Shown in pieces: positions 15,683 to 34,926 of a DNA stretch of 39,234 nucleotides. Source of the stretch: Chrysochromulina tobinii (taxonomy: Eukaryota); NCBI GenBank assembly GCA_001275005.1, contig JWZX01002561.1, forward strand, positions 1-39,234. Reading direction: 5' to 3'. Below the pieces are notes generated by a model, which was not told the DNA's origin, made no database searches, and worked only from the letters and a program-made list of their open reading frames with translations. How positions within the stretch are numbered: the stretch's first letter is position 1; each line of letters begins with the position of its first letter. The translations under genes were made by a program, and so were the position numbers.

Positions 15683-15724
<42 letters not shown>

Positions 15725-17980
15725 TCCGACATGCGCGGCAGCTATCGAGGAGGCGAGAGCGGTTTCACACTGCATGACGCGCTGTGCGAGTTCTTCGCCG
15801 AGGAGACGATCGCGGGCGACGACTCGTACCGATGCGAAAAGTGCAAGGCGCTGCGAAAAGCGACCAAGGTCCTTCGCCTCTCTCCTCCGCCCCTCCCCTC
15901 CCCTCGTGCATGCAAGTGCTAACCACGGCGCCGCCACTTCCCCTCAGGTCCTTCGCATCCTCAACTCGCCTCCCCTCCTCTGCGTCCATCTCAAGCGCTT
16001 CTCGTTTGACAAGCGCGCGGGCAAGGCGGGCGGGCGCGTCGCCTTCCCACTCGAGGGCCTCTCGCTTGCTCAATTCGACGCTGCCGCCAAAGCAGCGCCC
16101 ACTACAGCGCCCACTACAGCGCCCACTCCCGCAACCTCCTCCCGCAGCGCCAAGGCCGAAGCGAGCGCTGTATCGGGCGCATCGTCCTCCCACGCGGACG
16201 CGCCCGCCAGCGCGAGCCGTTACCCGCCGAGCCGTTTCCCGCCGAGCCAACGCGGCGGGGGCACCCACTGCCTGTACGACCTGTGCGCAGTCATAGTCCA
16301 CCACGGACAGGTGAGGGCCTCTCTGTGCTGACTCCTCTGTGATGCCCTCTCTGATTGCGTCTCTGATTGCGTCTCTGATTGTGTCTCTGATTGCGTCTCT
16401 GATTGCGTCCCTCATCAGTCGCTGAGCCACGATTGCGTCTCTGATTGCGTCCCTCATCAGTCGCTGAGCCACGGGCACTACACGGCCTTCGTACGCCACC
16501 CGTCGGGGGAGTGGTATCACATCGATGACACGAACGTCACCCTGGTGGGGCCAGCCGAGGTCGCCGCCGCCGAGGCATACCTATTGTTCTACGAGCGCCG
16601 CCAAGACCCGCGCTGGAAGGAGCAGCGCCGTCAGGTACTGATTGCATGCTGATTGCCTCTCTCATCAGGAGGAGCTCGGATTGCATGCGGCTGATGGCCT
16701 CTCATCAGGAGGAGCTCGGATTGCTGATTACCTCTCTCATCAGGAGGAGCTCGGATTGCATGCGGCTGATGGCCTCTCTCATGGCATGCTCATTGCCTCC
16801 CCATGGTAGGTGATCGCCGAGGTCGAGGCGTTCACACTCGGCGTTCACACGTCCAAGTCCGGCGGCCGTGCTGATGGCTCGACGGTCCTCTTATCGAAAG
16901 CATGGTGGGCGCCCGTTATCAGGCCTCTGATGACCGTTGATGAGCTCTGATTGCCTCCCTCATCAGTCGAAAGCATGGTGGGGGGCCTTCATCAGGCCTC
17001 CCCACCACGGCGCATGCAAGTGCTCACCACGGCGCTCTCGCCTCCCCACAGGTGGGCTCGGTATAAGGCCTGCGACGACCCCGGGCCGGTGACGCACGCG
17101 GACGTGCTCTGTGCGCACAACTGCGTCGACACGCACCACAACCGTAGCGTCGAGGCCTCGCGCCGCTGCTTCATGGACTTGCCACGCCCCGTGTAATTGC
17201 ATGCTGATTGCCTCTCTCATTGCATGCTGATTGGATGCCTCGCGCCGCTGCTTCATGGACTGGCCACGCCCCGTGTAATTGCATGCTGATTGCCTCTCTC
17301 ATTGCATGCTGATTGCTGCTTCATGGACTGGCCACGCCCCGTGTACGCACGCCTCACCGAGCAGCTCCACTCGCCTCCCCTCGCGCATGCAAGTGCTCAC
17401 CACGGCGCCCTCCCCTCCTCCCCACAGGTACTTTCGCCTCACCGAGCAGTTCTGCTACGGCGACGGCCCGGCGTACCAACTGCCGGCTGCCCAGCTGATA
17501 GAATGTCCTAAGTGCAAGCAGACGCATAAGGCAGAGGCGCGCGCCCTGCAGGACGAGCGTGACGAAATCCGAAGGCTCGACTCGACGGAGATCTCGGAGG
17601 GTGGCATCTGGTACATCGTGGACGCGAACTGGCTCACTCGCCTCCCCCCCTCGCGCATGCAAGTGCTCATCACGGCGCCTTCGCCTCCTCACAGGTACAT
17701 CGTGGACGCGAACTGGCTCAAGCATTGGCGCGAGTACTGCTGGGATAGTATTCGACCTGACCCGCCCGGCCCCGTGAGTAACTGGCGGCTCCTCGCGCCG
17801 AGCAAGATGCCGCGCCAGCACCTGCAGCGCGCCACTGATTACCGAGGCGTTAACGAAAAGGTGTGGCAAGTCTTTGTGGAACGGTATGGGGGCGGCCCGC
17901 CCATTTGCCGCGCCAAGCTCGACATCTATGCCCCTCCCGTGCCGCCCCCCGACCTCTCCGCCCCGTCGCGCCGCCGATGA
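14543..17980 (+). CDS. Ubiquitin-specific protease, USP20/USP33-like, with two C-terminal DUSP domains; 7 inferred introns
   Basis: Cys box [25 protein letters not shown], zinc CxxC pairs, VHLKRF, His box [35 protein letters not shown] motifs [11 protein letters not shown] and [10 protein letters not shown]...YGGGP. Introns 15126-15302, 15869-15947, 16311-16460, 16635-16809, 16905-17051, 17193-17427, 17611-17694 are all GT-AG and phase-consistent. Confidence 0.9.
15908..15947 (+). mobile_element. Intron 3'-end cassette, family A, copy 1 (Introner-like)
   Basis: gcatgcaagtgctaaccacggcg + pyrimidine tract + cag; the intron start gtccttcgc repeats the next exon start. Confidence 0.6.
16351..16472 (+). 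repeat. Intronic 12-bp microsatellite (ctctgattgcgt) with a 42-bp duplication of the acceptor site
   Basis: 16389-16430 is identical to 16431-16472. Confidence 0.9.
17012..17051 (+). mobile_element. Intron 3'-end cassette, family A, copy 2
   Basis: gcatgcaagtgctcaccacggcg...cctccccacag. Confidence 0.6.
17385..17427 (+). mobile_element. Intron 3'-end cassette, family A, copy 3
   Basis: gcatgcaagtgctcaccacggcg...cctccccacag, preceded by a copy of the next exon (cgcctcaccgagcag). Confidence 0.6.
17655..17694 (+). mobile_element. Intron 3'-end cassette, family A, copy 4
   Basis: gcatgcaagtgctcatcacggcg...cctcacag; an exact 26-nt duplication (17611-17636 = 17695-17720) brackets it. Confidence 0.65.
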
Positions 17981-18060
17981 GACCCGCAATCCGCCGCCGA
18001 TGAGACCCGCAATCCGCCGCCGATGAGACCCGCAATCCGCCGCCGATGAGGCTCGCAATC
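17969..18060 (+). repeat. 23-bp tandem repeat (ccgccgccgatgagacccgcaat), ~4 copies, including the USP stop codon
   Basis: Directly visible; the first unit carries the TGA at 17978. Confidence 0.9.
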
Positions 18061-18563
18061 CGGCCTGGCGCCATCGACGAGGCGCAGACACGGCGGGCTG
18101 CGGCTGGTTGCATCCCTACGGCGCCCAGGACGGCGCCTCAGATGGTACCTGTGGGGCTTCTCGGGCATGTGCCACTGTATTTCGAGGGAGTCGCACTGTC
18201 GGGTCTGTGGACGCGCCGCCGGAGCGGTGTCCGGTGACGATGCGGCCGTGAGTGTGCTGCGTGGCGTGGGCGTGCCGTCTCTTGCGTGCCGTGTAGTTAC
18301 ACCGCGCCCCCGCCGCAGAATCGAGACCATGTTCATTAAAGTGTCATGTGTGCCGCGGGTTTGTCATGTTTTTCGTCGTGTGTGGATTGTAGTACCATCA
18401 CCGGCGGAGCTCGAGCTTAAACACACTCCGTCAATGTAAAGCTCGACCTCGAGCTCCCGGCCACTCGTGCTCGGAAGGATAGAGGAGGCCCATGTTGATG
18501 TTCTTACTCCACTCGGAGCTGCGCCTGTCGTGGCTCCGTCGGCGCCCGGCATGGCGCCCGGCC

Positions 18564-19241
18564 TTATCCGGTCGGTGCCGCTATGTCCAAGTAGGCATCT
18601 CGCAGGTTCTCTAAATACGGCGTCAGGCGCGACTCGCACGTCTGGCGCACCACCCGCGAGCCCACGCTCTCAAACACGCGCCGCCCGCCCACAATCGGCA
18701 TGCTCGGCATCGTAAAGGTGAGCTCGAGCGTGCCCGAGAGCGTCCAGCCGCCATCGGCTGCACTGGTCCATGAGAGGACGGTCCGTCCTCGCGTCTGAGC
18801 GGCGGCCGCGAGGTTGCGCACGAGCAACAGGGGGCCGTTTGGCTTCTCGTCGCCAAGGTCGATCGAGGCGTCAATCACGTCGATGATGACCTCGGAGGTC
18901 GACGGATCCCGCACGATGCGCTCCCTGAAGGTTGTTACGACGCTGAGAGCGAAGAAGTTCACAGGCTGCTGCGCGCAACTGTAAAGGCCGGCACCATCTG
19001 GGTCTGGAATAGTCGCCGCGGGCGGTAGCTGCAGCAGCGGGCCGTCGCTTGCGCGGCTCAATAAGTACTCAGGGAAGCTGCGACCGCCTGTGGCTGGCAC
19101 AGCACATTGCGACCGAGCTCCGGCGGACAGAATGAGTGGAGGTGGCGACGTCGATGACGATGAGCCAGCCAGCGCGATGATGCGTCCAGCACGTGTAGCC
19201 AAAGCCACGACGTTGGCTAAGCACAGCAACAGCTCCAGCAT
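18564..19241 (-). CDS. DUF1997-like (SRPBCC/START-fold) protein with N-terminal signal peptide, probably plastid-targeted
   Basis: From MLELLLCLANVVALA (ATG 19241); EYLL, QPVNFF and the C-terminal RVFESVGSRVVRQTC..RLTPYLENLRDAY pattern recall DUF1997 proteins. Confidence 0.62.
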   Translation of the reverse strand: MLELLLCLANVVALATRAGRIIALAGSSSSTSPPPLILSAGARSQCAVPATGGRSFPEYLLSRASDGPLLQLPPAATIPDPDGAGLYSCAQQPVNFFALSVVTTFRERIVRDPSTSEVIIDVIDASIDLGDEKPNGPLLLVRNLAAAAQTRGRTVLSWTSAADGGWTLSGTLELTFTMPSMPIVGGRRVFESVGSRVVRQTCESRLTPYLENLRDAYLDIAAPTG

Positions 19242-19677
19242 GTCTCCAATTCTCGTGTGGCGCCGGCGTGAAATTTGATGTTTAGCTGTGAACGGGGACT
19301 CGGAGGTAAACCTCAAACATCCTGTGAGTCTCGTCTATGTGTGGCAGTTCTCGTCGATTTGTCTTTAATTTGAGCACAGGTTTATCGCTCTCCCTCCCTT
19401 AGTTTTTCCCTCCTCTCTTGCCTCCTATCTGTGTTTACTACGGTATCATGTTCTGGCCCCCACTGAGTTGTATAACTTACGTCCTTACAAAGGCCTGGTT
19501 TGGTTCAGTGATTTAACCCTACTATCATCTAATCATCGCCTAAACTTAATGTTCATGCCTTAGCATGCGAAGGGGAATCTCGATACGAAAAACGACAGAC
19601 GCTGAGGAACATTCCCTTTCTTTTGTCGCGAGCAAGCGCGAGCTCATACTCACACTATAACGAGTCGAAACTCCAGA

Positions 19678-21954
19678 ATGCATTCCTTCCTTGCTTGCTT
19701 GCTCTCGACGAGCGTTCGAGCTGCCATGGTGGGTGTGCAAAATTTGACCTGCTACCACGACCATGCTGCTACCACCGAGGCTGTCTTCATACCTTTGCGG
19801 GCATCACCCACGGAATGCAACGTGCAGCGCCTGATCGCCCTGGCACGTTCTGCGCAACGCACTGTGGTTCTGTTGTTGCCGCAGCCAAATGCCAGCCTTG
19901 AACATCGGCTTAGGCAGGATTACAGTCTCGACAATCTGATCATTCAACCGAACCCAGAAGGTGTGGACGCGCCGTGGATGTCGTCATTTGCTCATGCTAC
20001 CATGCGTTCCGGCGTAAGCAAGGGCGCTTTCATCACTTGGCTGGCCTCCCAGAAGCGATTCACTCGCGCCTGGCACATTGAAGAGGACGTGCTTTTCACG
20101 GGACGCTGGCATGAGCTTTTCGATGCTTACGTGACCAGCCCAGCGGACCTCGTGGCGAACATTCAAAAAATTCACCCCGGCTGGGCGTACGAACACTCCT
20201 GCAAAGTTCGGGCCGATCTTCCTTGCTACCCTCACGGAGTGCAAACACCTGGTGTGGATGGTTTGGTTACGGCGTGGCCTGCGATGCGCCTATCTGCAGC
20301 GCTTGCGCACCAGCTTTGCTCCTCGCTGCAGCACGACGGTGCAACAGGGCACCACGAAGCGCTGCCAGGCCCGATCTGCCAGAGGCTCAAATGGTGCAAG
20401 CTGCAGCGGCTGTCAAAGGAACATGTAGCTGAAACATTCGCCTTGGGCGGCTCGAACAAGGCCCTCTCAACTACTACTTGGCAACAAACGGGGGTTGGAC
20501 GCATGTTTCGCAGAAGGGATGCAGATGGTGTGTTGAAATGGGGCGGCGTTGTCTTGAATCGCACGCTTTATCATCCGATCAAGTGTGGCGCCGACCTTCC
20601 ACTGAACTCTTCAACTTCATACCATGATCCATGCTTTCGGAGCTCGGCATGCATTCAGAGCCGCTTCGTGAATCAGCTAACACCTAAGGTCAGCAAATGC
20701 CCAGATTTCTACCTCCGCAGATACGAGCAGCCGTTGCCTTTGTCCTACGTAAACACGCATGACCACTGGTTGATAGAAAAGCCGCTGCTGGAATCTCGAA
20801 GAAACCACGATTGTATGGTGATCGAAAAGGGAGGCCAAACGCTCGTCAACATTCTCGGGCGCTGGGCACGCAGCGTTGAAACACTTGACCTAATCACCGG
20901 AGCTACTTCAATGGCGAACACGTCGAGCGAACTTGATCCCGCTGGTTACCCGCTCAACAACTTGAATCACGTCTACGCAGTGCCCGTCTCTTCGCAATTA
21001 GAAGGTGCAGAGGGCCACGTCGACGAGATCTGGCTGCCATGCGGCTTCCATGGCGACGAAGTGAACTCAGAGATCAGCAGCCATTATGCTCGAATCATCG
21101 ATCTAAGCACCCTTCGTGTCCGGCTCGGACCTCGCCTCTTGCGTGCAGGTGGCGCGTGCAGCGCACAACCTATCCGACTCGAGGGACCCGGCACACCGGC
21201 TCATGTATGCAGCTTCGGCGGGACGGAAGGCAGCCACGATAAGGGCAAGTTCTTAGACACAGTAGCGTGCTACGATCGCCGAGCCAACGTGTGGAACGAG
21301 CCCTTCGGCCGCTTACCCATTGGGTTAGATCATTCAAATGCAGCAATCATTCCTGCAGGTACTTGCTCTCCCAAAGACGACACGCGTGTGCTCCTGCTCA
21401 ACTTTCGAACTCGTGCGTACGGCGGACATCATCCAGAGGTGTGGGCACATGACATGCCCAAGCGTGGACTTGGCACCGTCAACAAGTCGGGCAGCGCAGG
21501 ATGGTACGTTTTTGCTAACCACTCGGACGGAACTTCTGCCAGCTTGCCGCGTGATGCGTCCGGTTTGGTTGTCGCCGAGGGTGGCCGCTGGCTGATCAAC
21601 TACGGCGGAATTACCTATGTGTACCCACCGGGGCAAGAGTACAACCAGACGCTGAAAAGGGGTGCCCCTTTCTCAGACGTGCGTATCTTCGACGTGTGTG
21701 GCAGTCGCAAGTGGCACTTGGCACCGAAGCAATCGCACCTCGGTCTCAGAACTTTTGCAATTCAGACCTGTGCGAGCAAAGAACTTGGTGTTGCATTCAC
21801 GTGTGGTGGTCAAGCTCCATATAAGTGGCACACGACCCATCCAGAGACGCATATCAACTTGCCCTTCTGCATTGCCAACCCGATCCCAAAGAGACTATCC
21901 CTCAAAGGACGACGATTGGAGGACCATACTGTGCGCGAGCGTGCCACTGAGTGA
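19678..21954 (+). CDS. Secreted two-domain protein: DUF3405-like (glycosyltransferase-like) domain plus Kelch-type beta-propeller, 758 aa, intronless
   Basis: Signal-like N-terminus. WHIEEDVLFTGRWHELFD, MRLS, GHHEA and LYHPIK match my recollection of DUF3405. Kelch-like GG/W blades (SFGG...CYDRRANVW, NYGG...IFDVCGSRKW, TCGG). Confidence 0.72.
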   Translation: MHSFLACLLSTSVRAAMVGVQNLTCYHDHAATTEAVFIPLRASPTECNVQRLIALARSAQRTVVLLLPQPNASLEHRLRQDYSLDNLIIQPNPEGVDAPWMSSFAHATMRSGVSKGAFITWLASQKRFTRAWHIEEDVLFTGRWHELFDAYVTSPADLVANIQKIHPGWAYEHSCKVRADLPCYPHGVQTPGVDGLVTAWPAMRLSAALAHQLCSSLQHDGATGHHEALPGPICQRLKWCKLQRLSKEHVAETFALGGSNKALSTTTWQQTGVGRMFRRRDADGVLKWGGVVLNRTLYHPIKCGADLPLNSSTSYHDPCFRSSACIQSRFVNQLTPKVSKCPDFYLRRYEQPLPLSYVNTHDHWLIEKPLLESRRNHDCMVIEKGGQTLVNILGRWARSVETLDLITGATSMANTSSELDPAGYPLNNLNHVYAVPVSSQLEGAEGHVDEIWLPCGFHGDEVNSEISSHYARIIDLSTLRVRLGPRLLRAGGACSAQPIRLEGPGTPAHVCSFGGTEGSHDKGKFLDTVACYDRRANVWNEPFGRLPIGLDHSNAAIIPAGTCSPKDDTRVLLLNFRTRAYGGHHPEVWAHDMPKRGLGTVNKSGSAGWYVFANHSDGTSASLPRDASGLVVAEGGRWLINYGGITYVYPPGQEYNQTLKRGAPFSDVRIFDVCGSRKWHLAPKQSHLGLRTFAIQTCASKELGVAFTCGGQAPYKWHTTHPETHINLPFCIANPIPKRLSLKGRRLEDHTVRERATE

Positions 21955-22910
21955 GTCACTGAGACGGATCGGAGACGGGACCCCCGTGGCCAGCGTGCTG
22001 GGTCGCGGGTTGTCGGTGATTTCTGAAGCTGAGGCGTTATATCGTTATATCGTGGTTGTCTTCCTTCCGCCAGGCTGGGGCAGGCAGGCAATAATTAAGG
22101 CCCCGCGCTAGCTCCGGCACTGAGCGGCGCGCACACAGCGGGCTTACAGCGGGCGGGCAGAAAAGCATGAATGCATACGATAATAATGACGATATTCATT
22201 CTACATTCTTCATTCATTTGGTGAGGTCAATGCAGCAATGCCTTGCCATAGTCGGAATCATACTAACGAAACCACGTCCGTCCGTGCCGTCCGGACTCAA
22301 GTGTGAGGGTCGCGTTGCCCTTGTGTCGTGTGTCGGAGAGTGAGCTGATCGCCGCCGCACACTCTGATCGTGCCCCACCCTCCCGCACGCGTACCCTGTA
22401 CGCTGGTATAGCTTAGGGGACTTGGAGCCCGGCCGGGGCCGCGGCCCGTCACCGCGTCTGGCCGGCCGCCTCCTGTTCTGGCTGGTGCGTCCTGTGCGGC
22501 CGTGGCGAGTCTGAGTGTGCGGGTCTGTTAGTATTTCGCCGTTTGTTTTTGCGGTGTTGAAAGTTGAAACTTGAAAGTTCAACAACCTACGCGGACGAAT
22601 CAACATCCCTTGGTTCACAGATGCGCTGCACAGAGAAGCCACGCGTGTCGTCATATGGATCAGTCTTGTGCTGGATCCGAACACTCCTGGCGACACACGC
22701 GGTTCGCGGGCCGGACGCGCGGCGGGAGACCGAGATGGGAGTGTGGAGGGACGAACCCAACTCACGCAAACACGGGACGTCTGTCGGTGAAGCGTGAACA
22801 CTCGTCTGGAGCACGTTTCCCGAGTCCAGTACTCTCGACAAGATCATGAATGTTCTTGCGGAACTTAGAGTCCCCAAACTAAAAACGCTCAAAACGACGC
22901 TCTGTATCGC

Positions 22911-24986
22911 ATGGAGTTCGGCCTCAAGCTCCTCTGGTCGACGGCGTCGGCCATCGGGCTGCGCCGACTGATGAAAATGTTGCCGAAGGCGTACAAGGCA
23001 ACGACCTTCTTCTTTGACGGCGTGGCCTGCAAGGGACACGTCGGCCTCACCATCGACGACGGGCTGTGCCGCAATGGCCCAGGGCCAAGCATGGTAGCGG
23101 AGGTCGCCACGCTCCTAAAAGAGCACGACGCGCGCTGCACCTTTTTCGTGTGCTCCGAGTACCTCGTTGGTGTCGAGGCCGAGGCGGAGGCGCTCGTTCA
23201 CGAGGGACACGAGCTCGGCAATCACATGACGTCCGACAAGCAATTCTACTTCCACAAGCTGCCAGCAGGCGAGTTTGAGCAGCAGCTGCGCGGTACGACC
23301 CAGGCCATCGAGGCCGTGCCTGGCGTCGGCCGCGTGCGCTGGTTCCGCGCTCCGCAGGCCCTGTACACCCAGTCGATGGAGCGGACGGTCACCTCGCACG
23401 GCTTGCGGCACGCGCTGGGCGACTGCTACGCGGACGACTGGGCGATGGAACACAATGCGGACTTTGTGGCGAGGACGATCTTGAAGCAGGTACGGGATGG
23501 GTCCGTGATCGTGCTCCACCAGCCCGAGAGGGGCTTCCGCGAGCACACCTTCGCCATCCTGCGCCAAGTCCTCGAGGGACTGAGGGCGAAGGGCCTCAAG
23601 TGCCGCACTCTGTCGGAGATGGCGTCTTTGGAGGGAGCCGCTCGGAGATCGCACCTCGGAGATCGCGCTCTCTCCGAGATGGCGTCTTTGGAGGGAGCCG
23701 CTCGGAGATCGCATCTCGGAGATCGCACTCTCTCCGAGATGGCGTCTTTGGAGGGAGCCGCTCGGAGATCGCATCTCGGAGATCGCACTCTCTCCGAGGT
23801 GGCGTCTTTGGAGGGAGCGGATCCGATGGTGGCCGAGGCGGCGATGGAGACGGCGGCGGAGACGGCGGCGGTGGCGTGGGCGGCGGCGGATGCCAGCGCG
23901 GAGCATGACATGCTGGCTGCGCCGACGAGCACCGAGCCTCTACCGACTTCGATCCACAGTCGGCATCCTTCGATCGACTGCGCGTGCTACTACACCGAAA
24001 ACTTCTTCTTCGGCCCGCGCCACTTCTTCTTTGGTCCGCGCCACTTCACGTTCGAGGGCGAGGATGCCTTCCGACGGCAGAATGCAGACTTGCTGGCAAG
24101 TCTCTCACCCTCGGATGCGGAAGGACTGCTGAGCGGTTTGGAGGCGGAGGCATTGCGCAGGCGGCAGCAGCCCGCCCTCGCCGCGGCGCGCAAGGCGAAA
24201 ATCGAGGCCGAGTACACACGGCTGCACCCGAGCTTGTGGACGCTATGTGACGAATGGCTCCATGCGGACTTCATCGAGCTCGTTCATCGCGCGCGTCGTG
24301 CTGGGCGTGCCCACGACGGCGCCCACGAAGGCGCCCCAAAAGACGGTGGCGGCGCGGAGCCCTTCAAACCTCCACGCAAGGTGGCCGAGGGCGTGTTCGC
24401 GCTACCCGTCTTCTCGGAGCGCTTCTGTCAGCTACTTTGCGAGGAGCTCGATGCCTTCGGCCGGTCGGGCCTGCCATGCGGGCAGCCCAATAGCATGAAC
24501 CGACACGGCGCGCTGTTGGACGAGCTCGGCCTCTACCCCGGGCTTCTCGATCCTCTGGTACGCGAGTGGCTGGTGCCGCTCTGCAGCCAGATCCCTGCAT
24601 TCGCCGCGGTGGGTGGAGGGCATCTCAACAGTCACAAGAGCTTTGTGGTCACGTACAGAATTGGCGAAGACGAGCACCTGACGGAGCACTTTGACAATGC
24701 GGAGGTGACCCTCAACGCCAACCTGGGTTTGAGCTTTGAGGCGGGCGAGCTGTGCTTCTACGGCCACAAGGACGCCGCGAAGGACGCGCCGAGCGCCCAC
24801 CACGCATGGACGGCGGGCGTGGGCCACGCGGTACTGCACCTTGGCCAGCAAGTGCATGCTGCGCTGCCCATCACCGAGGGCGAGCGGCGCAACCTTGTCA
24901 TCTGGATGCGTTCGACGGCGTGGCGCCGAGAGAATGGATGCCCCATGTGCGGCAGCACTGATCGCTTGCTCGAGGGCTCCGCATAG
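22911..24986 (+). CDS. Fusion of a NodB-type polysaccharide deacetylase (CE4) and an OGFOD2-like 2OG-Fe(II) oxygenase, 691 aa
   Basis: N-half: LTIDDG, HELGNH, WFRAP, DW, GSVIVLH. C-half: PNSMNRHG, FVVTY, HFD (HxD), VTLNANLG, H..LPITEGERRNLVIWMRS, terminal CxxC. Confidence 0.82.
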   Translation: MEFGLKLLWSTASAIGLRRLMKMLPKAYKATTFFFDGVACKGHVGLTIDDGLCRNGPGPSMVAEVATLLKEHDARCTFFVCSEYLVGVEAEAEALVHEGHELGNHMTSDKQFYFHKLPAGEFEQQLRGTTQAIEAVPGVGRVRWFRAPQALYTQSMERTVTSHGLRHALGDCYADDWAMEHNADFVARTILKQVRDGSVIVLHQPERGFREHTFAILRQVLEGLRAKGLKCRTLSEMASLEGAARRSHLGDRALSEMASLEGAARRSHLGDRTLSEMASLEGAARRSHLGDRTLSEVASLEGADPMVAEAAMETAAETAAVAWAAADASAEHDMLAAPTSTEPLPTSIHSRHPSIDCACYYTENFFFGPRHFFFGPRHFTFEGEDAFRRQNADLLASLSPSDAEGLLSGLEAEALRRRQQPALAAARKAKIEAEYTRLHPSLWTLCDEWLHADFIELVHRARRAGRAHDGAHEGAPKDGGGAEPFKPPRKVAEGVFALPVFSERFCQLLCEELDAFGRSGLPCGQPNSMNRHGALLDELGLYPGLLDPLVREWLVPLCSQIPAFAAVGGGHLNSHKSFVVTYRIGEDEHLTEHFDNAEVTLNANLGLSFEAGELCFYGHKDAAKDAPSAHHAWTAGVGHAVLHLGQQVHAALPITEGERRNLVIWMRSTAWRRENGCPMCGSTDRLLEGSA
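23604..23818 (+). repeat. 60-bp coding tandem repeat (20 aa RTLSEMASLEGAARRSHLGD), ~3.6 copies
   Basis: Near-identical 60-bp period directly visible. Confidence 0.95.
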
Positions 24987-26534: not shown

Positions 26535-28864
26535 ATGAGCGGCGACATCGGCGGAGCGGAAGAGGACTCCGAGGAGGACCCGGAGTTCTCGCCCGACCTG
26601 GGCTTTAGCAGCGTCGCAAAGCCGCTCTCGTATCAGCACCCGCACGCGCACGTGAAGACGGAGATAGGGGACGCGTGCTTTGGCGTGCCGTACGGCGACG
26701 AGGATGATGAGGACGACGAGGACGAAGATGAGGGCGATTCCGACGCGCTGAGCGACGAGATCCGCTTCAGCCACGAGCGCTACTTCTCGCCGCGCCTGCA
26801 CGAGCTGCTGCGCGGCTCGGTCAAGGGCGGTGACCCTGCGTCGCACACGGGGCTACTCACGGGCGTGCGGCCGATGCTGCTGCACCAGAGCGACTCGCCA
26901 CATCCAGAGCGCCCCGCACGCCTCGTCGCCATCTACAATGAGCTCATCGAACGCGGGCTCGACGCGCGCTCGCGCCTGGTACCGGCGCGAGAGGCAAGCA
27001 CAGCTGACCTCGAGCTCGTGCACACGCCCGAGCAGGTGGCTAAGTCGACAGGGCTGTACCCGAGCGACGGCGCGGCGAGCGCGACACTCGGCCTCGACAG
27101 CGACACCTACTTCGCCGCAAGCGCCTCCGGGTACGCGGCCCGCCTCGCGGCAGGCTCCGTCGTCGAGCTGGTCACGCGAGTGGTGCACGGCGAGCTGCGG
27201 AATGCGCTCGCAGTGGTGCGTCCTCCAGGGCACCATTGCGAAGCGACGCAGGCGATGGGCTTCTGCCTGCTCAACAATGTGTGCGTGGCCGTCGCCGTCG
27301 CGCGCCGCCGCCTCGGGGTCCCCCGAGTCCTCGTCGTCGATTGGGATGTTCATCATGGCAACGGCGTGCAGGTGCGTCGATGGGGACCGCTGATGACCTC
27401 CCTCATCATAATCATGACCTGCCTGAACGCCTCATTGAACGCCTCTCTGAGAGTTGCCCTACTGACGGCCTCGCGACTGCAGAACATCTTTCGCGACGAC
27501 CCGACCGTCCTCTACGTATCGCTGCACAGGTGCACGCGGATTGCGCGCGGAGTGCACGCTGATTTCACGCTGATTGCACGCTGATTGCACGCTGATTGCA
27601 CGATGATTGCAGGATGATTGCACGACGATTGCACCCTGATTGCACCCTGATTGCACGCTGATTGCAGGATGATTGCACGACGATTGCACGCTGATTACCT
27701 CTTCGTATCGCTGCACAGGTACAGTCACGGCGCTGATGGATCCGACCCGCCCGCGGCGCCGGCTCGCATGCCGTTGTGTTCTTTCCGCGTCTGTGAAGGC
27801 TGCTGACTGGGCGTTCGCGTCTGTGATTGCTGTTTGACTGGCCGCTGAGTGGCGTCTGATGGCCTCCTTCTTCAGGTACGACCAACTCGCCGGGTCGGCG
27901 TCTGATTGCGTATGATTGCGTATGATCGCGTCTGATGGCCTCCTTCATCAGGTTCGGGCGTGGCTTCTATCCGGGGACAGGCCACCCCAGGGACGTGGGT
28001 GACGACGCGGGCGAGGGCACCTCAGTCAACGTCGCTTGGGAGCGCGGTGAAGGCTATTCCGATGCGGAGTACCTTGCCGCCTTCGATCGTCTCATCATGC
28101 CCATTGCGCGCGAGTACGCGCCCGAGCTCGTGATCGTCTCGGCCGGATTCGACGCTGCACGCGGCGATCCGCTTGGGGGTATGGGCCCGGCGCCTCGATA
28201 TGGACTCGATGAGTGCTCCCGTCATCTCCCGATGATTAACTCCGTCATCACGGCGCCTCGATATGGACTCGATGAGTGCCCCTCGAATGGCGACAGCAAA
28301 TTGCTACACTCATTGCCTCCCTCCTCACTCTGATGACGTCGGATTGCGTCCTCGAGCCGGAGACGTAACGCCAGCCTGATGACGTCTGATTACCTCCCTC
28401 CTCACTCTGATGACGTCTGATTGCCCCCCTCCTCACTCTCATGACTTCTGATTGCCTCGCTCCTCACAGGAATGGACCTAACGCCGGCTGGCTACTTCCA
28501 CATGACCACTCTCCTCGGCACGCTAGCGGCCGGCCGTCTCGTCATCGCCCTCGAAGGCGGCTACAACCTGCGCTCGATTGCCGACTCGGCGGCCGCTGTC
28601 CATGCGAGCCTCCTCGGCGACCCACCGCCGCTCCTCATGCGCCGACCGCCGCGTCCGGAGGCTCTCGCCGACATCGAGGCCGCCGCGCGCGCGCTCGCGC
28701 CGTATTGGGCGTGCCTGCGCCCGCCGCCGCTCGCACGGCCAGCTCCAAAACGGGCGCGCGGTGCGCCCGCGGGCAACGCCCGGGACAGCGCCGGCGTGTA
28801 CAAGAAGAGCAAGGGAAGACGAGGTCGCCTGCACGGGCCGTGGTGGTATAGGTTCCTCTACTAG
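26535..28864 (+). CDS. Class II histone deacetylase (single catalytic domain), 3 inferred introns
   Basis: HPERPARL, RPPGHH, AMGFCLLNNV, DWDVHHGNG.Q, SLHR|FGRGFYPGTG, VSAGFDAARGDPLG, LEGGYNL. Introns 27372-27482, 27530-27951, 28179-28469 are phase-consistent. Confidence 0.93.
27530..27697 (+). repeat. Intronic 11-bp tandem repeat (ttgcacgctga)n, ~15 units
   Basis: Directly visible at the start of HDAC intron 2. Confidence 0.92.
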
Positions 28865-29704
28865 GAGCCGTGCACAGTATGGGTACACCACCGATCGAAG
28901 GCGTACCACATGATGAGGCGACGACGGACGGTGTGAGCCGAGAACAAGAGCTGCGAAAAGCGGACGAGAGAACGGCTGGTTGATGGGGGCGTGCATGCGG
29001 AGAGACTGATTCGACATAATTCCGAACTCGTATACGGTCACGTCAGAACCGAAACCGACTCTAGGTCATGACTCTACGGTACGTTCTCTGAACAAACAGT
29101 ACACAGAAACGGTTGAGATCATTCATCTCAGATCATAAACAAACAGTTCGTGTCCCGCTCAACTGACACCGTATCATGGAAAAGTCGCTCCCGTGAGAAC
29201 AACTTCGTTCCGCTGGCGCGCTGGGGTGTGGCTGTGCGGGACCGGATTAACGGATTGTACCATGGGCATGGTGAACATGTACCGGGCCCGTGGCTACCAG
29301 ATGGCCACAAAAAACAGTGGCGATCGGGTAATCAGAACGTCGAAAAACTGAATTTCCTTAATCCGATCTACACTCGGATATGGTCGCACTTGACACTCTC
29401 TACGCCATGTGCCTTTCATGACGTCTCATGGTGCCTTTGTCGTGTGTGCCAACGCAAGGAAATCAAGAAACGATGGATTATCGTGGAGCTGAGCTTTAAC
29501 ATTTGCCACGCAGCCACGCTATGAATCCGAGAAGCTGCAATGAGAGGATGACGTGCGGATGATTTCACCTTTGCCAGTTGCATGCAGACGGGCGAGACGC
29601 ACCGTTACACAAAAATTGTGACGTGTCTGTGCGTGTCGAGGAGATAGGAATCCTACAAAAGACAAGACGTCACGCTCACCAGTTCGCCGGGTCCCAAGCG
29701 CAAC

Positions 29705-32320
29705 ATGCTAAGAGTAGTAAAGGACCCAGGCATCGACATGCCACGGGTACCCTCGGACGACAAGATATCCCCACACACCAAAAGTCGGCGCCACGCGGAG
29801 AAGCTGGACAAGTTCGTGAAACGCCACGGTGTCGAGGGCGCCGCAGCCCTTCAGGCAGAGACCGAGAGGATGGCAGCGATGATCAAGGCACATGAGCAGA
29901 GGACGAAAGTCACGAGCTGGGTGATGACGCCCGGCAAATCCGCATTTCTGGCCTTCTGGGACTTCCCGTCCTCAGTCGCCCTCTTGTACACGCTGAGCAT
30001 CAGCCCGTTTGAGGCGGGCTTCGTCGAGACGACCGTCGGCGCAGCCGCCTGGAGGGACCCGTACTTCATTGCGAATCGCGCCATCGATCTCGTCTTCTTG
30101 TTTGATATGATCCTGCAGTTCTTCATCGCCGTCGAGAACCAAAGCTTGGATATTGCCGGTGAGACTCTCTGGGTCACGTCCCCACGAAAGATTGCCAAAC
30201 GGTACTTGATGTCGTGGTTCCTGCTCGACGCCGCCACGCTCTTCGTGCCCGCGTACTTTGACATTGCGACCGCGACGGGCGAGATGGGAGACGATGCGCC
30301 TGACCCCTCGGCGCTTCGCGCCCTGCGCGTGGTTCGCTTGACCAAGCTCGTGCGCCTTGTGCGCGCCTCGCGTATATACAAGCGCTTGCTTTCCAAGATC
30401 ACCCTCTCCTCAGCCCAGTTGACGGTGCTCACCTGCGTGACGTTGCTCCTGGTCGGCGCCCACCTTTACGCGAGCATCCTCGGCATCTGTACGGCGATGC
30501 ACTCGAACAAGCAGGACACGTGGCTCGGCGATGCCAAATATGGCTACTGCAAGGACGATGCTTGCCAAGTGAGCACCCCTACTCTCTACCTTGCGTCGTT
30601 CATGTGGGCCGTCATGATCATCACGGGCACGGGCGGCACCGACTTCTACCCGAGCGAGTCTTCGGAAGCCGAGACGATGCTCGTGCTGGTCTTGATGCTT
30701 GTAGGAGCGTTGCTCTGGACGTACCTGCTTGCCCTCTTCTGCGACATGGCAACCAACGGTGAGCCGGGCATGACGCACTTCAAGCAGTTGCTCGACTCCC
30801 TCAACCGGCACGCGAACGCGCACCAGCTGCCCAAAGAGATGGCGCGCCGGATCCGCGAGTACATGTACCAGCAGCAGCCCTCACAGCTGTCCAAGTACAA
30901 CGAGGGTGTCATCTCGTGCTTGTCGGCCGGCCTCCAGTGCGAGATCCTTCTCTACGTGAACCGGCCTTGGCTCCAGAAGGTCTGGTTCTTCCAAAACCTC
31001 GAGCCCGCGTGCTTGGCGCGGCTGACGCGCGAGATGTCGGCGCTCACGTTCGCCCCGAGCGAGATCGCGCCGCTCCAAAACCTGTACGTGGTCTGTCGTG
31101 GGATGGTGCTTTACGGGAGCTTGATCTTGCGCAGCGGCGCAGTCTGGGGGGATGACGTCATCCTGACCGAGCCTCGTTACTTCTCGAAGCGACACGCGCG
31201 CGCGATCTCGTACGTGGACACGATGATGCTCAACCGTGACACGCTCACGCAGGTGATCGTCCTCTTCCCCGCCTCCAAGGCACGGCTGCGGCTGATGATG
31301 ATCAAGCTCGCGCTTCGTCGGCACATCGTTGAAGCCGCGCGCTGCCAATGCACGAACGCTGGCGACCTGTTCAGGCATGCCGCCCCGGGTGGCACCGATG
31401 GTATCTCATTCTTCAGCCGACTGGACAAGGATCGTGATATGGCCCAACGGTCAGATGCGATCATCGGCACCCCGAAGAGCAAACGCCAGCAGAAGCGATG
31501 GGACAAGCAGAAGGCGTGGCTCACGGAGAAGAAACGTGACGAGGAGGCATTCGATGGCACCCGCACGACGATCTTGATGGCGAACCAGATTCCACAGACG
31601 CAGTGGCGCGACGCTGGCGATGCGCCTCTCGAGGACGACAAGCACGCGTGCATCATGTTCGCGATGGACGAGCTCAGTCAGAAGCTGATCAGCATGCAGA
31701 AACAGCACAGTGCGGACATGCAGCGCCTGTATCGGCATGTGCAGGGCCTCGTCGGCGGTGCTGGTGCAGCAGCAGGGTCGCAAGCGCTTCCCACTGGCGC
31801 GGAGGCGCGCCGTACCCAGGCGCAGGGCGGCAGTCCTTACAACCCGTCGAAGAGCCCATCGGCGCAACGTTGGGTCTGCCCCGACGGCATGGACAAGCCA
31901 AGCCAAGTACTCTGGGACGACCGTCCTGCTCTGGGGCCGAGCAGCAAGTACTCTGGGACCGACAAGGATCGATTCCCCGACTCAGGCCCGCCGACGCCGC
32001 GGATGGGTTCCGGGCCTCCGCGGCGTGCGACCTCAGGCTTCGAGCACAAGCGGCTCGGGTCGCCTGACCTAAGCGGCAAGAGCAAGAGCGAATCTTTTGA
32101 TCGTCCCCTAGCTAAGCGCGTCCCCGTCGCCGCCATTGCCACCACCGGAACCGGGAGCAACGGAGGCGCCGTCGTGGCACCGTTGGGCCTATCGCAGTCT
32201 GTGGAGTCGACTGCATCCTTAGCGAATCATGTGCAGTCTGCACAGCGCGCCTGGCTGCAGCGCTTCGGAAGGCCCCCAGGGTCGCCGCGGAATGACATCG
32301 TCACAGATATGCGCATATGA
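29705..32320 (+). CDS. Voltage-gated cation channel with C-linker and cyclic-nucleotide-binding-homology domain (KCNH/HCN/CNG superfamily), 871 aa, intronless
   Basis: Six TM segments, IAKRYL.SWFLLD, S4 LRALRVVRLTKLVRLVRASR, pore helix YLASFMWAVM, C-linker LPKEMARRIREY and CNBD-like FAPSE...LYVV.RG.V...WGDD...ARAISY. Confidence 0.9.
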   Translation: MLRVVKDPGIDMPRVPSDDKISPHTKSRRHAEKLDKFVKRHGVEGAAALQAETERMAAMIKAHEQRTKVTSWVMTPGKSAFLAFWDFPSSVALLYTLSISPFEAGFVETTVGAAAWRDPYFIANRAIDLVFLFDMILQFFIAVENQSLDIAGETLWVTSPRKIAKRYLMSWFLLDAATLFVPAYFDIATATGEMGDDAPDPSALRALRVVRLTKLVRLVRASRIYKRLLSKITLSSAQLTVLTCVTLLLVGAHLYASILGICTAMHSNKQDTWLGDAKYGYCKDDACQVSTPTLYLASFMWAVMIITGTGGTDFYPSESSEAETMLVLVLMLVGALLWTYLLALFCDMATNGEPGMTHFKQLLDSLNRHANAHQLPKEMARRIREYMYQQQPSQLSKYNEGVISCLSAGLQCEILLYVNRPWLQKVWFFQNLEPACLARLTREMSALTFAPSEIAPLQNLYVVCRGMVLYGSLILRSGAVWGDDVILTEPRYFSKRHARAISYVDTMMLNRDTLTQVIVLFPASKARLRLMMIKLALRRHIVEAARCQCTNAGDLFRHAAPGGTDGISFFSRLDKDRDMAQRSDAIIGTPKSKRQQKRWDKQKAWLTEKKRDEEAFDGTRTTILMANQIPQTQWRDAGDAPLEDDKHACIMFAMDELSQKLISMQKQHSADMQRLYRHVQGLVGGAGAAAGSQALPTGAEARRTQAQGGSPYNPSKSPSAQRWVCPDGMDKPSQVLWDDRPALGPSSKYSGTDKDRFPDSGPPTPRMGSGPPRRATSGFEHKRLGSPDLSGKSKSESFDRPLAKRVPVAAIATTGTGSNGGAVVAPLGLSQSVESTASLANHVQSAQRAWLQRFGRPPGSPRNDIVTDMRI

Positions 32321-32977
32321 GACCTCGCGCGCAGCATGGTGTACGCTCTTCGCTGCGAGGCTGCTCTGGGACCCACTCGACTGAGCTGTAGCCGACTTGC
32401 CGCGGATTGCTGCTGGGGGCTTCTGGGGGCGACCGACCGTTGGGCGATAGACTGAACGAGCTGTGGTTACGAAAGGGGGCTACGGTGCTCCTTGCCCTCT
32501 GCAAGCGCGCGAGGTGATACAGCTGGCGATGCGGGCTACCATGTCTTGATGGAATTCCATTCGTGTGGGTCTACGGACAGAAGGTCTACGGATGAGTGTG
32601 CGAGCGACTGCGCCTCACTCCGAGCGGTTTCTGAGCGGTCGTGCGTCGAGCACAGGGCAGGTAGCCGGGCAGGCACACTGACACACGTGCACGCCCCTGT
32701 CGTGGACGCACGGATTCGTGTCAGTCATGATGTATGATGAGCAGATGAGCTCAACGTTCATGCGGGCGATCGAGAGCGAATTTTGTAGTTTATGTGGAGG
32801 TGTTGACCGTCGGGACATGCATGATCCGTGGCAGCGTGGTGTTCTTATGGCGCAAATGTGGTTTAAAGCTGTTCACAGGACACCGTTCACAGATCTTGAC
32901 ATGTCTTGATCGCTGAAACTGGTCGCCTCCGACACGCGCGGCGGATCGCGAATCGCACGCAACGCACGACGACCACG

Positions 32978-34926
32978 ATGCCGCTGGCGGCAGCAGACCT
33001 GGAGAAGGTGCAGTCCCTCGCGCTTGCCCTACGGAGTCTATCAAGCATCGCACAAAGCTCCACACTCGCATACCCTCGTGTTCGGCCGGGCTGGCCCAGG
33101 GGTGCGGTGGGCACAGAATGGAAATGCCCATGGAATTTTGGCCACTCGCAGTGTGCCATGCTGTTCCTCGCACATGGCCTGCCCCTGTCTGCTGAGTCGG
33201 AGGCTGCCATACAATGGGCGATGCAGCTGAAGCAGAGGCTGAAGAGCGCAATCCTAAATTACAGCTTGGAACATTGGCCATCTGCATGTGCGCATGGGCG
33301 CTGGAGGGCCGAACCTGATTGAGAGCCCTTGCGCATGTGCACTCGCCCTTCCTGACTCGCGTCTGCTTGGGCCGTGAGGAATCCAGGGCGGGCGTACAAC
33401 CCAGCTGGCATTGACGAGGACCACCTCCTCATGCGCGTGGACCCGCTGGATGACGGTTACGTGTTGCCAAGGTTTCACCACTTTGTGTGGTTCGAGCGTG
33501 GCCAGCTCGCCGGCTCCCACAGCGGCTGCGACGCGCGCGGGATCTGGCTGGACCAGTACACCCTCCTTGCCGTGTACAATGAGATGACGATCTTCCCACA
33601 TTACAAGCAGGGAGACCCCCTCTACCCTGGCTCCGGCAACAATCGGGTGCACATGTACGCGCTGAACCTGAGCGCCGGCAAGCACACCCGACCAATCCAG
33701 CTGAAGCTCGTGGGCCTACCGTCCCAAGTTTGGGAGAAGAACTGGGCTCCGTTCGTGCACAATGGCGAGCTGTTCATGAGCTACAAGCTCCGGCCGCAAC
33801 ACCTCGTCCTCCGCTGCAAGTTGAGTGCCGTAGTACCGGGCGCAGCGCCCCCCGAGGTACCGCAAGGCCCTGGGGATTGTCGCGTGGCGCATGCAAGTGC
33901 TCACCACGGCGCGTCCTCCCCTTTCCCCACAGGTGCCGCAAGGCCCTGGGGATTGTAGCGTGGCGTTCAACACGACGAGCCCCGACACGATGTGGGCGCA
34001 GGCCGTCGACCACATCGTGTCGAACGTGCGCTTGTCGACGCCGCCGATGCTCGTCGATGGACGTTTCATCGCGGTCATGCACTACGAGCCCATACTTGGC
34101 ATGTACGAACACTCTTGATTGCATCTGATTGCATCTGATTGCCTGCATCTTCAGCCTCGCGAGCTCGCACTCCGAGCCCATACTTGGCACTCACGAGCAC
34201 TCTTGATGGCCACACTGATGAGGTCTGATTGCCTCCATCATCAGGTACGAGCACGCCTTCTACGAGATGCAAGCCGAGCCGCCCTTCGCCATCCTTCGCA
34301 CCTCGAGACCGTTTCGGCTCTCGGACGCGGGCCTCGCCGTGCCCAAAGTTGCACGCCAGAACGGCGCGACCTTTGAACGTGATAAGGGCGTTCAGTACAT
34401 CGTCGGGCTCCACCTCGAGAGGAATTCGTCAAACGACGGCGCTCAGCACGGCGCGAGCGGCGGCCGTCACGATAGCCGACGCGTCACGATGACGTACGGC
34501 TTGATGAACCACTATAGTATGAAGACCTCCATCCAGCTGGGTACCATCTACCGTATGCTCGCCGACAGTGAGGCCGACCCCGCCCGGTACCGCTCCTGCT
34601 TGGTCTCGACGAGGGGCGATGGGCAGTGCCGTGAATCCAATTGCCGAAGCCCCGACACACCGTCCAAGTTTGTGAATCCGCATGCGCCGGAGCGCGGGGT
34701 GAGCCAGTTCGTGAGCCCGCACAGAGGGGGCCACCCGATCACACCCGAAGACGTCAAGCTGGCCATCTGCCCGAACCTGTGCACGAAGTACAATTACGAG
34801 TGCAATGATGTCAAGAGCATGCAGCGCGCTCTGAAGCTGGATCGGTCCGAGGGGGGCACCGAGGTGGCTTTCTACAGCCATGCCGCCACTCAGTTTGAGA
34901 GGTTGCTCGCGGGCGACCAGGGATGA
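32978..34926 (+). CDS. Beta-propeller glycosyltransferase/hydrolase-like protein (beta-1,2-mannosyltransferase GT91-like motifs); 3 inferred introns
   Basis: YNP, DAR, WEKNWAPF..NGEL..SY.L.P.HLVL and spliced MYEHAFYEMQAEPPFAILRTS. Introns 33857-33932 and 34103-34244 are well supported; intron 33288-33386 and the start at 32978 are less certain. Confidence 0.62.
33889..33932 (+). mobile_element. Intron 3'-end cassette, family A, copy 5
   Basis: gcatgcaagtgctcaccacggcg...ttccccacag bracketed by a 33-nt duplication (33857-33889 vs 33933-33965, 2 mismatches). Confidence 0.65.

What the first reader, a model, noticed from the sequence alone, without database searches (positions are those of the whole stretch)
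15869..33965. Candidate intron-generating element: a 40-44 nt acceptor cassette inserted between long exon duplications
Seen: the 23-nt core GCATGCAAGTGCT(C/A)A(C/T)CACGGCG, followed by a pyrimidine tract and CAG, forms the 3' end of five introns (cores at 15908, 17012, 17385, 17655 in the USP gene and 33889 in an unrelated gene). The core always starts 40-44 nt from the end of the acceptor and contains a branch-like CTAAC/CTCAC. A GT-initiated copy of the next exon precedes it: 26/26 nt at 17611 vs 17695, 31/33 nt at 33857 vs 33933, 9 nt at 15869 vs 15948, and about 22 nt at 17343 vs 17428. Established: Introner elements in Micromonas and Aureococcus create introns by transposition, typically with short target-site duplications. 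Inference: here the element supplies only the branch point and acceptor, while a long, variable-length duplication starting with GT supplies the donor, so insertion leaves the protein unchanged. No terminal inverted repeats are visible, and variable long duplications fit staggered-break repair or target-primed insertion better than a DNA transposon.
Basis: partly seen in the sequence, partly recalled or inferred. Interest (0 to 1): 0.92.

Follow-up and report, generated by a model that had tools for sequence, protein, structure and literature searches.

The report
Introns seeded by copied splice ends
In a freshwater haptophyte alga, a family of an estimated several hundred to a few thousand short introns consists of a copy of the gene's own next 8-50 bases plus one shared intron-end sequence; some close relatives appear to lack individual copies, and new ones likely arise when DNA repair copies the end of an existing intron into a gene, a route to new introns that a published survey of this species did not detect.

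Summary
All five cores are at the stated places. RNA contigs splice four of the five introns; the working donor of the 17385 intron is 17193, not 17343. In 134 metagenome loci, 86 of 106 canonical copies have a copy of the next exon upstream (1.5% in shuffles); where scored, identity begins at the donor base. Copies sit in sense coding sequence at donor-like sites. About 800 exact-core sites are estimated. Presence/absence: one strain lacks an 81-nt copy (33/33 duplication). Two relatives (98% and 93% identical) read through the 33857 site yet stop in the next intron. The host is Chrysochromulina tobinii or nearly so, scored as having 0 introner families in a 2025 survey. It is not a fixed 40-44-nt element. 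Copies carry 5' arms from other introns, two of them traceable to an exon of the same gene. Mirror forms exist, and a second acceptor family does the same. Best mechanism (0.5, inferred): templated insertion during repair, copying an existing intron's end and rejoining behind it, filtered by splicing. A SINE-like retroelement is the main rival; a DNA transposon is unlikely.

The parts
14543..17980 (+). Host gene 1: ubiquitin hydrolase with UCH and DUSP domains (USP20-like), 796 aa after removal of 7 introns
   Evidence: Model aligns end to end with homologue P0004; UCH and DUSP domains; named hits are USP20
15869..15947 (+). 79-nt intron: exon copy 15869-15907 (9 exact, then gapped), core 15908-15930, tract+CAG 15931-15947; likely 'mother' of two downstream copies
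   Evidence: RNA skip in run X17; also present in other strains (P0001, P0007, P0009, P0011, P0018)
15964..15975 (+). Exonic 12-mer that reappears only in the 5' linkers of the 17385 and 17655 copies (17369-17380, 17636-17647)
   Evidence: 3 occurrences in 157,614 nt searched on both strands, all in this gene
16905..17051 (+). 147-nt composite intron: family-B insert ending in CAG at 16966 between 34-nt repeats (16894-16927 / 16967-17000) that straddle the donor, then core 17012-17034 and tract+CAG
   Evidence: RNA skip in 3 of 3 runs
17193..17427 (+). 235-nt composite intron: working donor 17193; family-B-like inserts between 30-nt repeats of the upstream exon end; fossil exon copy 17343-17364; linker; core 17385-17407; tract+CAG
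   Evidence: RNA skip in 3 of 3 runs
17611..17694 (+). 84-nt intron: perfect 26-nt exon copy 17611-17636, linker 17637-17654, core 17655-17677, tract+CAG
   Evidence: RNA skip in 3 of 3 runs although retention would be in frame without a stop
33857..33932 (+). 76-nt intron: exon copy 33857-33889 (31/33), core 33889-33911, tract+CAG; apparently absent from two relatives
   Evidence: P0165 and P0175 read through the site and stop inside the next intron; no RNA junction seen
32978..34926 (+). Host gene 2, no Pfam family in the two parts scanned; same spliced junctions in a Chrysochromulina parva gene model
16311..16460 (+). Family-B intron (CTGATTGC...ATCAG type)
   Evidence: RNA skip in 1 of 3 runs
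16635..16809 (+). Family-B intron
   Evidence: RNA skip in 3 of 3 runs
34103..34244 (+). Family-B intron starting with a 9/10 copy of the next exon; the marker that P0165 and P0175 are unspliced here

Best explanation
These introns (four of the five window copies shown spliced in RNA) have a 5' half that is an 8-50-nt copy of the next exon and a 3' half that is a shared branch-point/acceptor module, and they likely arise when repair-type DNA synthesis at a break in a transcribed gene copies the end of an existing family intron and then rejoins the gene a few dozen bases behind where it left. Shown: the anatomy, splicing, sense-strand coding location, donor-like target (G|GT-RCG or GAG), filled and empty sites, and copies that carry pieces of another intron's own exon duplication. 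Inferred steps: (1) a staggered break or stalled 3' end exposes the target at a GT. (2) That end is extended across an existing intron's CAG, tract, branch point and GCATGC motif, often a little further; the template may be any family member, nearby or unlinked, as DNA or as unspliced RNA. (3) Synthesis returns to the gene through 2-3 nt of microhomology, so the intervening exon stretch is duplicated. (4) Selection keeps products that splice without a scar. These are mostly host GT plus copied AG, sometimes the mirror image (copied GT plus host AG), sometimes both sites from the duplication. A floor on intron length probably explains why the duplication plus linker is at least 14 and usually 23-57 nt. 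No transposase or dedicated master element is needed. The flanking repeats would also allow exact loss or tandem doubling of the intron.
For: 86 of 106 canonical copies have an anchored copy of the next exon vs 1.5% of 3,145 shuffled pairings; length 8-50, median 23, ungapped. Identity is 0.92-0.98 at +1 to +8 and near the null upstream. Empty/filled pair L014/L091: 81 nt, 33/33 duplication, module identical over 48 nt to L014's own intron 476 nt away. Two relatives lack the 33857 intron but keep the next one. Copy-of-a-copy: a 12-mer occurs 3 times in 157,614 nt, once in the USP exon and twice in linkers of the same gene. 7 of 41 neighbouring pairs share 5' flank vs 2.7% of 8,730 unlinked pairs, and 77 unlinked pairs share 5' arms vs 1.6 expected. 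Variable ends: mirror and both-sites-from-duplication cases (L011, L037, L060, L123, L128; L015, L028, L116; read by eye), and a 10-nt acceptor-only insert with a ~32-nt duplication (L120 vs L058). 5'-junction microhomology averages 2.8 vs 0.7 nt in 9 clean junctions. Family B shows the footprint in 8 of 23 vs 2.4%. Core divergence (~6%, from the mismatch spectrum) is like duplication divergence (5-7%).
Against: The 3' junction is at CAG| in about 100 of 195 copies (79 type 1 plus most of 23 with mismatched starts), sharper than random template switching predicts. Neighbouring introns share no more exon-start sequence than unlinked ones (1.83 vs 1.80 nt, p=0.35), so priming microhomology at that junction is not shown. 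Most neighbours are not each other's copies: shared core variants 1 of 11 vs 20.6%, tract p=0.10. The 5' edge peaks at GCATGC (80 exactly, 48 one base further, 5 inside the core, partly an ascertainment effect), which looks like a defined end. Near absence of antisense or non-coding copies (130:3 strand pairs; 39 of 42 sense and coding-like) needs transcription or RNA involvement that is not demonstrated. The microhomology sample is 9 junctions, one probably a tandem copy. L091 is in frame without a stop, is one of the 3 sites the strand classifier scored antisense, and has no RNA data. The empty records for 33857 are seen only as proteins and could come from partly spliced RNA.
Confidence: 0.5

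Rival explanations
1. A short non-autonomous retroelement: an RNA ending at the acceptor CAG (excised intron or master transcript) is reverse-transcribed at a nick beside G|GT, giving a fixed 3' end, 5' truncation and a long variable target duplication.
For: The geometry (precise left edge of the duplication, variable right edge) matches target-primed reverse transcription as recalled from L1 biology. 77 of 161 copies end in CCCCACAG. A full-length form with its own donor exists, and matches to its 5' arm run from 0 to 30 nt. Copies are sense-strand and genic. Non-LTR-derived introners are reported (PMC12130899, passages).
Against: No poly(A) or simple tail; 153 of 161 tracts differ. Mirror cases with a precise 5' GT and ragged 3' end. 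Arms derived from other introns' exon copies. No RT among 16 window frames scanned (genome not available). No Rfam family at threshold.
Confidence: 0.25
2. No gain: old introns are remodelled in place by local duplication and conversion, and empty sites come from exact deletion between the repeats.
For: Local duplications are rampant. 16905 and 17193 are composites; a whole 94-nt intron is doubled in L026 vs L062; 21 of 195 copies are tandem. Direct repeats would permit exact loss. The 15869 intron is shared by five other strain records, and culture-lake recaptures suggest most sites are shared.
Against: Both a 98% and a 93% relative lack the 33857 intron. That site lies in a 14-residue stretch absent from homologue P0145. 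Remodelling does not explain why identity starts at the donor base with no remnant of an older intron, nor a perfect 33-nt repeat around a module identical to a neighbour's.
Confidence: 0.12
3. Spliceosome-made template: mis-splicing joins an intron's 3' AG to a cryptic exonic GU (intron circle, back- or trans-splicing), and that RNA is reverse-transcribed as a repair patch.
For: Explains at once the exact AG|GT joint in both normal and mirror forms, donor-like targets (34 of 71 vs 20 of 205 background GT sites; -1 G 61 of 76 vs 43 of 204), sense-only orientation and the local excess.
Against: The simple circle version predicts daughters upstream of mothers, but the two traceable window daughters lie 1.4-1.7 kb downstream. 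Unlinked sharing is common. No such RNA was observed; contigs cannot show it.
Confidence: 0.08
4. A cut-and-paste DNA transposon (MITE-type introner).
For: The splice geometry (carried 3' site, 5' site from the duplication) is that of Symbiodinium and Polarella classes 4/5 and 6/8/10.
Against: No inverted repeats in the three window introns tested; only a 10-12-nt internal palindrome, with its left arm in 24 of 142. Duplication length is 8-50, not fixed at 3-9. Essentially one orientation.
Confidence: 0.03
5. The core is only an extended branch-point consensus.
For: Positions in GCATGC and GCTCA vary less than others, so part of the core is probably under splicing constraint.
Against: It cannot produce exon copies, empty sites or shared arms. 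Family-B introns of the same genes splice without this core.
Confidence: 0.02

Closest known systems
Introner-like elements of Symbiodinium and Polarella glacialis classes 4/5 and 6/8/10 (bioRxiv 10.1101/2020.10.14.339549, parts 1-2 of 4 read; PMC9860276 Fig. 2B, passages)
   Same: The mobile part carries the 3' splice site, the 5' end of the target duplication is the donor, and insertion is scarless.
   Different: The duplication lengths given there are fixed at 3-8 nt, and the Symbiodinium elements have inverted repeats. Here the duplication is 8-50 nt and often half the intron, with no terminal repeats, ragged ends and copy-of-copy arms.
Chrysochromulina sp. Tara-MAG introners (PMC9860276 Fig. 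2C, passages; supplement rows)
   Same: Same genus, no TIRs, strongly genic.
   Different: The figured family has a 4-bp duplication and carries the 5' site. Their sequences were not compared here. C. tobinii itself was surveyed: 'tobin' occurs once, in the genome list, in the stored part of the 2022 file, and it has 0 families in the 2025 table (PMC12130899 file 7).
Intron gain by tandem genomic duplication (review PMC3443670, passages)
   Same: A duplicated exon stretch supplies splice sites. A minority here take both sites from the duplication, and L014's second intron is built of tandem exon copies.
   Different: In most copies the acceptor half is foreign and shared by hundreds of introns, and identity does not extend upstream of the donor.
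[quoted passage not shown]
   Same: Direct repeats from a staggered break flank filler sequence; no transposase.
   Different: The Daphnia repeats are described as short, and the filler is not described as an intron family. The Hypoxylon introns have no flanking duplication. Here the filler is an existing intron end and the repeats are long.
Intron transposition, spliceosomal retrohoming, RT template switching (review PMC3443670, passages)
   Same: New introns are homologous to existing ones, sometimes in the same gene.
   Different: Those models move a whole intron without duplicating the exon; here only one end moves.
SINE/LINE target-primed reverse transcription (recalled; non-LTR introners mentioned in PMC12130899)
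   Same: Variable target duplication, precise 3' joint, 5' truncation with microhomology.
   Different: No tail, no single master, mirror forms, near-exclusive sense-coding location.

Membership tests
Introner (broad sense) | Sequence-similar introns in many unrelated genes | tested here: met
   142 independent sites in 134 loci; ~800 exact-core sites estimated; similarity limited to the 3' half
Introner (broad sense) | Spliced out without changing the protein | tested here: met
   4 of 5 window introns skipped in RNA contigs; frames and homologue collinear
Introner (broad sense) | Presence/absence between close relatives | tested here: met
   L014 vs L091 as DNA; P0165 and P0175 vs window, seen as proteins only
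Introner (broad sense) | Whole intron is a copy of a transposable element with an identifiable mobilising partner | tested here: inconclusive
   The 5' half is host exon; partner not searchable, no genome held
TIR DNA-transposon introner | Terminal inverted repeats | tested here: not met
   0 inverted pairs in three window introns; those in L091 involve target sequence
TIR DNA-transposon introner | Fixed short target duplication (3-9 nt) | tested here: not met
   8-50 nt, median 23, in 86 sites
SINE / non-LTR retroelement | Variable-length target duplication abutting the 3' end | tested here: met
SINE / non-LTR retroelement | Poly(A) or simple-repeat tail at a fixed 3' end | tested here: not met
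   Ends in a variable C/T tract plus CAG; some copies end inside the tract
SINE / non-LTR retroelement | Master transcript and partner reverse transcriptase | not testable with these tools
   No genome; RNA runs kept as contigs; no Rfam family at threshold
Tandem-duplication intron gain | Both splice sites come from the duplicated exon | tested here: not met
   Upstream extension score >=5 in 10.5% of 86 sites vs 2.4% null; the rest start at the donor
DSB-repair / templated-insertion intron gain | Direct repeats above background around inserted sequence | tested here: met
   86 of 106 vs 1.5%
DSB-repair / templated-insertion intron gain | Microhomology at both junctions | tested here: inconclusive
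   5' junction 2.8 vs 0.7 nt in 9 cases; 3' junction not enriched between neighbours
DSB-repair / templated-insertion intron gain | Dependence on an end-joining polymerase | not testable with these tools
   Needs genetics

The most novel reading that the evidence does not exclude
A transposase-free, self-seeding intron-gain process. Any existing intron end, read from unspliced or mis-spliced RNA, serves as the patch for breaks in transcribed genes. Introns therefore beget half-host, half-copy daughters by the hundreds, and similarity-based introner screens miss them because half of each intron is the host's own exon.
Probability: 0.3. Interest if true: 0.92.

Novelty: new variant of a known kind. 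Interest (0 to 1): 0.78.

Why it matters
Most recent intron gains have no known source. Here hundreds of young introns keep a readable record: the length of the break, both junctions and sometimes the identity of the parent intron. Empty sites appear among wild relatives of a named species with a public genome. That makes repair-driven versus retroelement-driven intron gain directly testable. It also points to a blind spot. A survey that included C. tobinii scored no introner family, plausibly (inference) because only the 3' half of each intron is shared. Similar families may be hidden in other genomes.

Tried and rejected
No whole genome is held and the metagenome loci could not be extended, so no genome-wide census, partner search or outgroup comparison was made. 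Viral collection: one hit at the end of a 4.5-kb contig whose preceding sequence is unrelated, taken as a chimera and dropped; the long form gave 0 hits. Run X20 shared only motif-sized pieces and one 151-nt piece, so it gave no presence/absence data. One search was swamped by repeat joints from the DNA run; summed depth there is not a copy number and was not used for counting. Hairpin preference at target sites: none (z 0.02 in 76 sites vs 0.09 in 71 controls, p=0.32), although L091's target has an 11-bp stem. Intron RNA folding: unremarkable in 4 of 5, z -2.4 only for L091. Tract derived from the upstream exon: no (4.09 vs 4.17 null). Core GC used as donor: donor-to-core distance mod 3 is 34/21/23 over 78 sites, and the RNA junctions use the upstream GT. 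One Rfam hit, below its gathering score, taken as chance. Paralogue P0003 may share intron positions with the USP gene, but protein alone could not settle the 15869 position. One search was too noisy and was redone.


Full report
Observation. The motif occurs five times in the window, at the stated positions, all on the plus strand, with no further copy at up to three mismatches and none in 100 shuffles. Distances to the end of the acceptor are 40, 40, 43, 40 and 44 nt. The exon copies are 9/9, 19/22, 26/26 and 31/33 as claimed. Removing seven introns from 14543-17980 gives a 796-aa UCH/DUSP ubiquitin hydrolase that aligns end to end with homologue P0004; of six donor combinations only 16905 plus 17193 stays open. 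RNA contigs skip 16905-17051, 17193-17427 and 17611-17694 in 3 of 3 runs and 15869-15947 in 1 of 3. The 17343 copy is therefore a fossil donor inside a larger intron. The fifth intron (33857-33932) keeps a 448-aa frame, versus 198 if retained, and matches a C. parva gene model, but no RNA junction was seen.

Host. Named relatives of a window transporter include haptophytes and dinoflagellates. Its 90% cluster contains a Chrysochromulina tobinii protein, and a C. parva model is 98% identical to gene 2. The host is C. tobinii or an immediate relative. No genome was available.

Generality. One metagenome scan returned 134 loci, about 2,100 stretches estimated. Of 154 matches, 12 were recaptures of the same site, 12 lacked flank or a nearby AG, and 24 were not canonical (tract under 70% pyrimidine or outside 35-56 nt), leaving 106. 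Of these, 82 are followed by GT and 8 by GC, and 86 have a copy of the next exon upstream against 1.5% of 3,145 shuffled pairings. Ungapped length is 8-50 nt, median 23, and most introns are 57-101 nt. Ungapped lengths are lower bounds, since many linkers continue the copy after a small gap. Among the 86, identity is 0.92-0.98 at +1 to +8, fades over 30-40 nt and is near background upstream of the donor. Targets are donor-like: GT-RCG/GAG in 34 of 71 vs 20 of 205 background GT sites, and -1 G in 61 of 76 vs 43 of 204. Copies agree in strand with each other in 130 of 133 pairs and with a second intron motif at 63 of 66 informative sites. With 36 of 78 sites set aside for intron motifs in the flank, 39 of 42 score as sense and 39 as coding; the classifier is 93% right on 123 held-out windows. 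Recapture (13 in 10,585 pairs of 146 sites) gives about 800 exact-core sites (480-1,530), assuming equal sampling. Among copies not picked by the pattern, only about a third match it exactly (21 identical to the majority form plus some one-mismatch variants, of 98 within three mismatches), so the family is probably a few thousand.

Presence and absence. L091 carries an 81-nt copy with a perfect 33-nt duplication where L014 has the target once, with flanks 97% alike. The insertion is in frame without a stop, lies in low-complexity sequence that the classifier scored antisense, and has no RNA test. Reading frames place it on the same strand as L014's downstream gene. For the window's own 33857 intron, P0165 (93 of 95 identical) and P0175 (190 of 204) read straight across the site and end in MYEHS-stop. 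That is exactly what the window gives if this intron is removed and the next is kept. They are best read as genomic copies lacking the intron, though partly spliced RNA is not excluded. Absence in both a near and a farther relative favours gain. The 15869 intron is present in five other strain records.

What is copied. The shared part is not a fixed unit. Tracts differ in 153 of 161 copies. The 5' edge peaks at GCATGC, but matches to a longer form that begins with its own GT donor run up to 30 nt further. 77 unlinked pairs share 5' arms where 1.6 are expected. Some arms are traceable to a parent. A 12-mer found three times in 157,614 nt lies in the exon after intron 15869 and in the linkers of the 17385 and 17655 copies, as expected if these were copied from the 15869 intron together with the end of its own exon duplication. 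L091's module equals, over 48 nt, that of L014's intron 476 nt away; the same tract was seen in one other locus of 111. Local copying is a minority: 7 of 41 near pairs share flank (2.7% of unlinked pairs), but core variants are shared in 1 of 11 (20.6% expected) and exon starts no more than chance. Of 195 copies within three mismatches, 79 are clean type 1, 23 the same with mismatched or shifted starts, 38 have repeats reaching into the tract (many tandem), 21 are tandem, 2 lack an AG and 32 show no repeat. By eye, five are mirror images in which the longer form gives the donor and a copy of the upstream exon gives the AG; three take both sites from the duplication. L120 has only the last 10 nt of the module between ~32-nt repeats that L058 has once. 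A second acceptor family shows exon copies in 8 of 23 cases vs 2.4%. It has inserted again, with 34- and 30-nt repeats straddling the donors, into the 16905 and 17193 introns.

Mechanism. Long variable duplications, ragged ends, parents both near and far, mirror products and two module families fit templated insertion during repair, with splicing as the filter (0.5). Nine clean 5' junctions show 2.8 nt of microhomology vs 0.7. Against it stand the sharp CAG| joint, the sharp GCATGC edge, no excess microhomology at the 3' joint and the scarcity of antisense or non-coding copies. The GCATGC edge may be functional, since those positions vary little; repeated truncation would erode arms down to the smallest unit that still splices (inference). 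The strand bias suggests breaks in transcribed DNA or an RNA template. A SINE-like element (0.25), remodelling with loss (0.12) and a spliceosome-made RNA joint (0.08) remain open. A TIR transposon fails both tests. Statements on L1 and polymerase-theta behaviour are recalled, not read here.

Comparison with print. Introners that carry the 3' site and take the donor from the duplication are known in dinoflagellates, with duplication lengths of 3-8 nt where given (bioRxiv 10.1101/2020.10.14.339549, parts 1-2 of 4; PMC9860276 passages). The figured marine Chrysochromulina family has a 4-bp duplication and carries the 5' site. C. tobinii was in both surveys. It appears only in the genome list of the stored part of the 2022 file, which was cut when stored, and has 0 families in the 2025 table (files 13-14 not searched). 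Tandem-duplication and break-repair gain are reviewed in PMC3443670 (passages); PMC8469720 (passages) proposes repair-based spread without duplications; PMC11282704 was read in part 1 of 5 only. Seven full-text searches listed no paper describing this family; subscription journals are mostly outside the library, and bioRxiv supplements were not seen. An earlier AI note on another piece of this genome reports the same kind of footprint; it is not independent support.

Verdict. Real, spliced, abundant and polymorphic. It works like an introner, with a footprint unlike the described families, but it is not shown to be a transposable element. New variant of a known kind, with a fair chance of a new gain mechanism. 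Interest 0.78.

Noticed in passing
window 29705-32320 (+) and 37243-39234 (-): Two closely similar ion-transport genes face each other about 5 kb apart; the first is one uninterrupted 871-aa frame.
   Followed up: no
window 15126-15302: First USP intron has a third kind of end with a diverged GCATGC...TGCTCAC motif, and the first 12 nt of the core in antisense at 15250-15261. A 63% paralogue seems to share this position.
   Followed up: partly
RNA run X15, table 5c: An RNA contig at depth 60 joins two cores through a 33-nt spacer; possibly a highly expressed locus or a master RNA. Not located.
   Followed up: no
L014 minus strand, about 396-233: A likely intron made almost wholly of tandem copies of the next exon's first ~30 nt, without the module: looks like pure tandem-duplication gain.
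   Followed up: no
L026 vs L062: A whole 94-nt intron is doubled in one strain; the second copy starts with the exon's first six bases, suggesting slippage across a short match.
   Followed up: partly
core positions 9-23: Read antisense, the core contains a donor-like G|GTGAGC; in L091 it is complementary to the target donor. No antisense use as a donor was found.
   Followed up: no
L058/L120: A copy, and a truncated 10-nt insert beside it, lie opposite to a family-B intron; a rare apparent antisense case.
   Followed up: partly
window 3090-3690, 4060-4365, 12610-12710, 27370-27950, 28185-28470: Many family-B introns (CTGATTGC arrays), often with copies of flanking exon.
   Followed up: partly
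window 22911-24986: Single frame fusing a polysaccharide deacetylase and an OGFOD2-like domain, with three tandem ~60-nt repeats between them.
   Followed up: no
window 14589-14623: Five differences at half depth in DNA and RNA runs, as from a heterozygous diploid or mixed strains.
   Followed up: no
L135 4455-4554: A viral-collection contig ends in a family copy; probably an assembly chimera.
   Followed up: partly
P0002: Database protein joining the USP first exon to an unrelated PF03030 domain; probably a misassembly.
   Followed up: no
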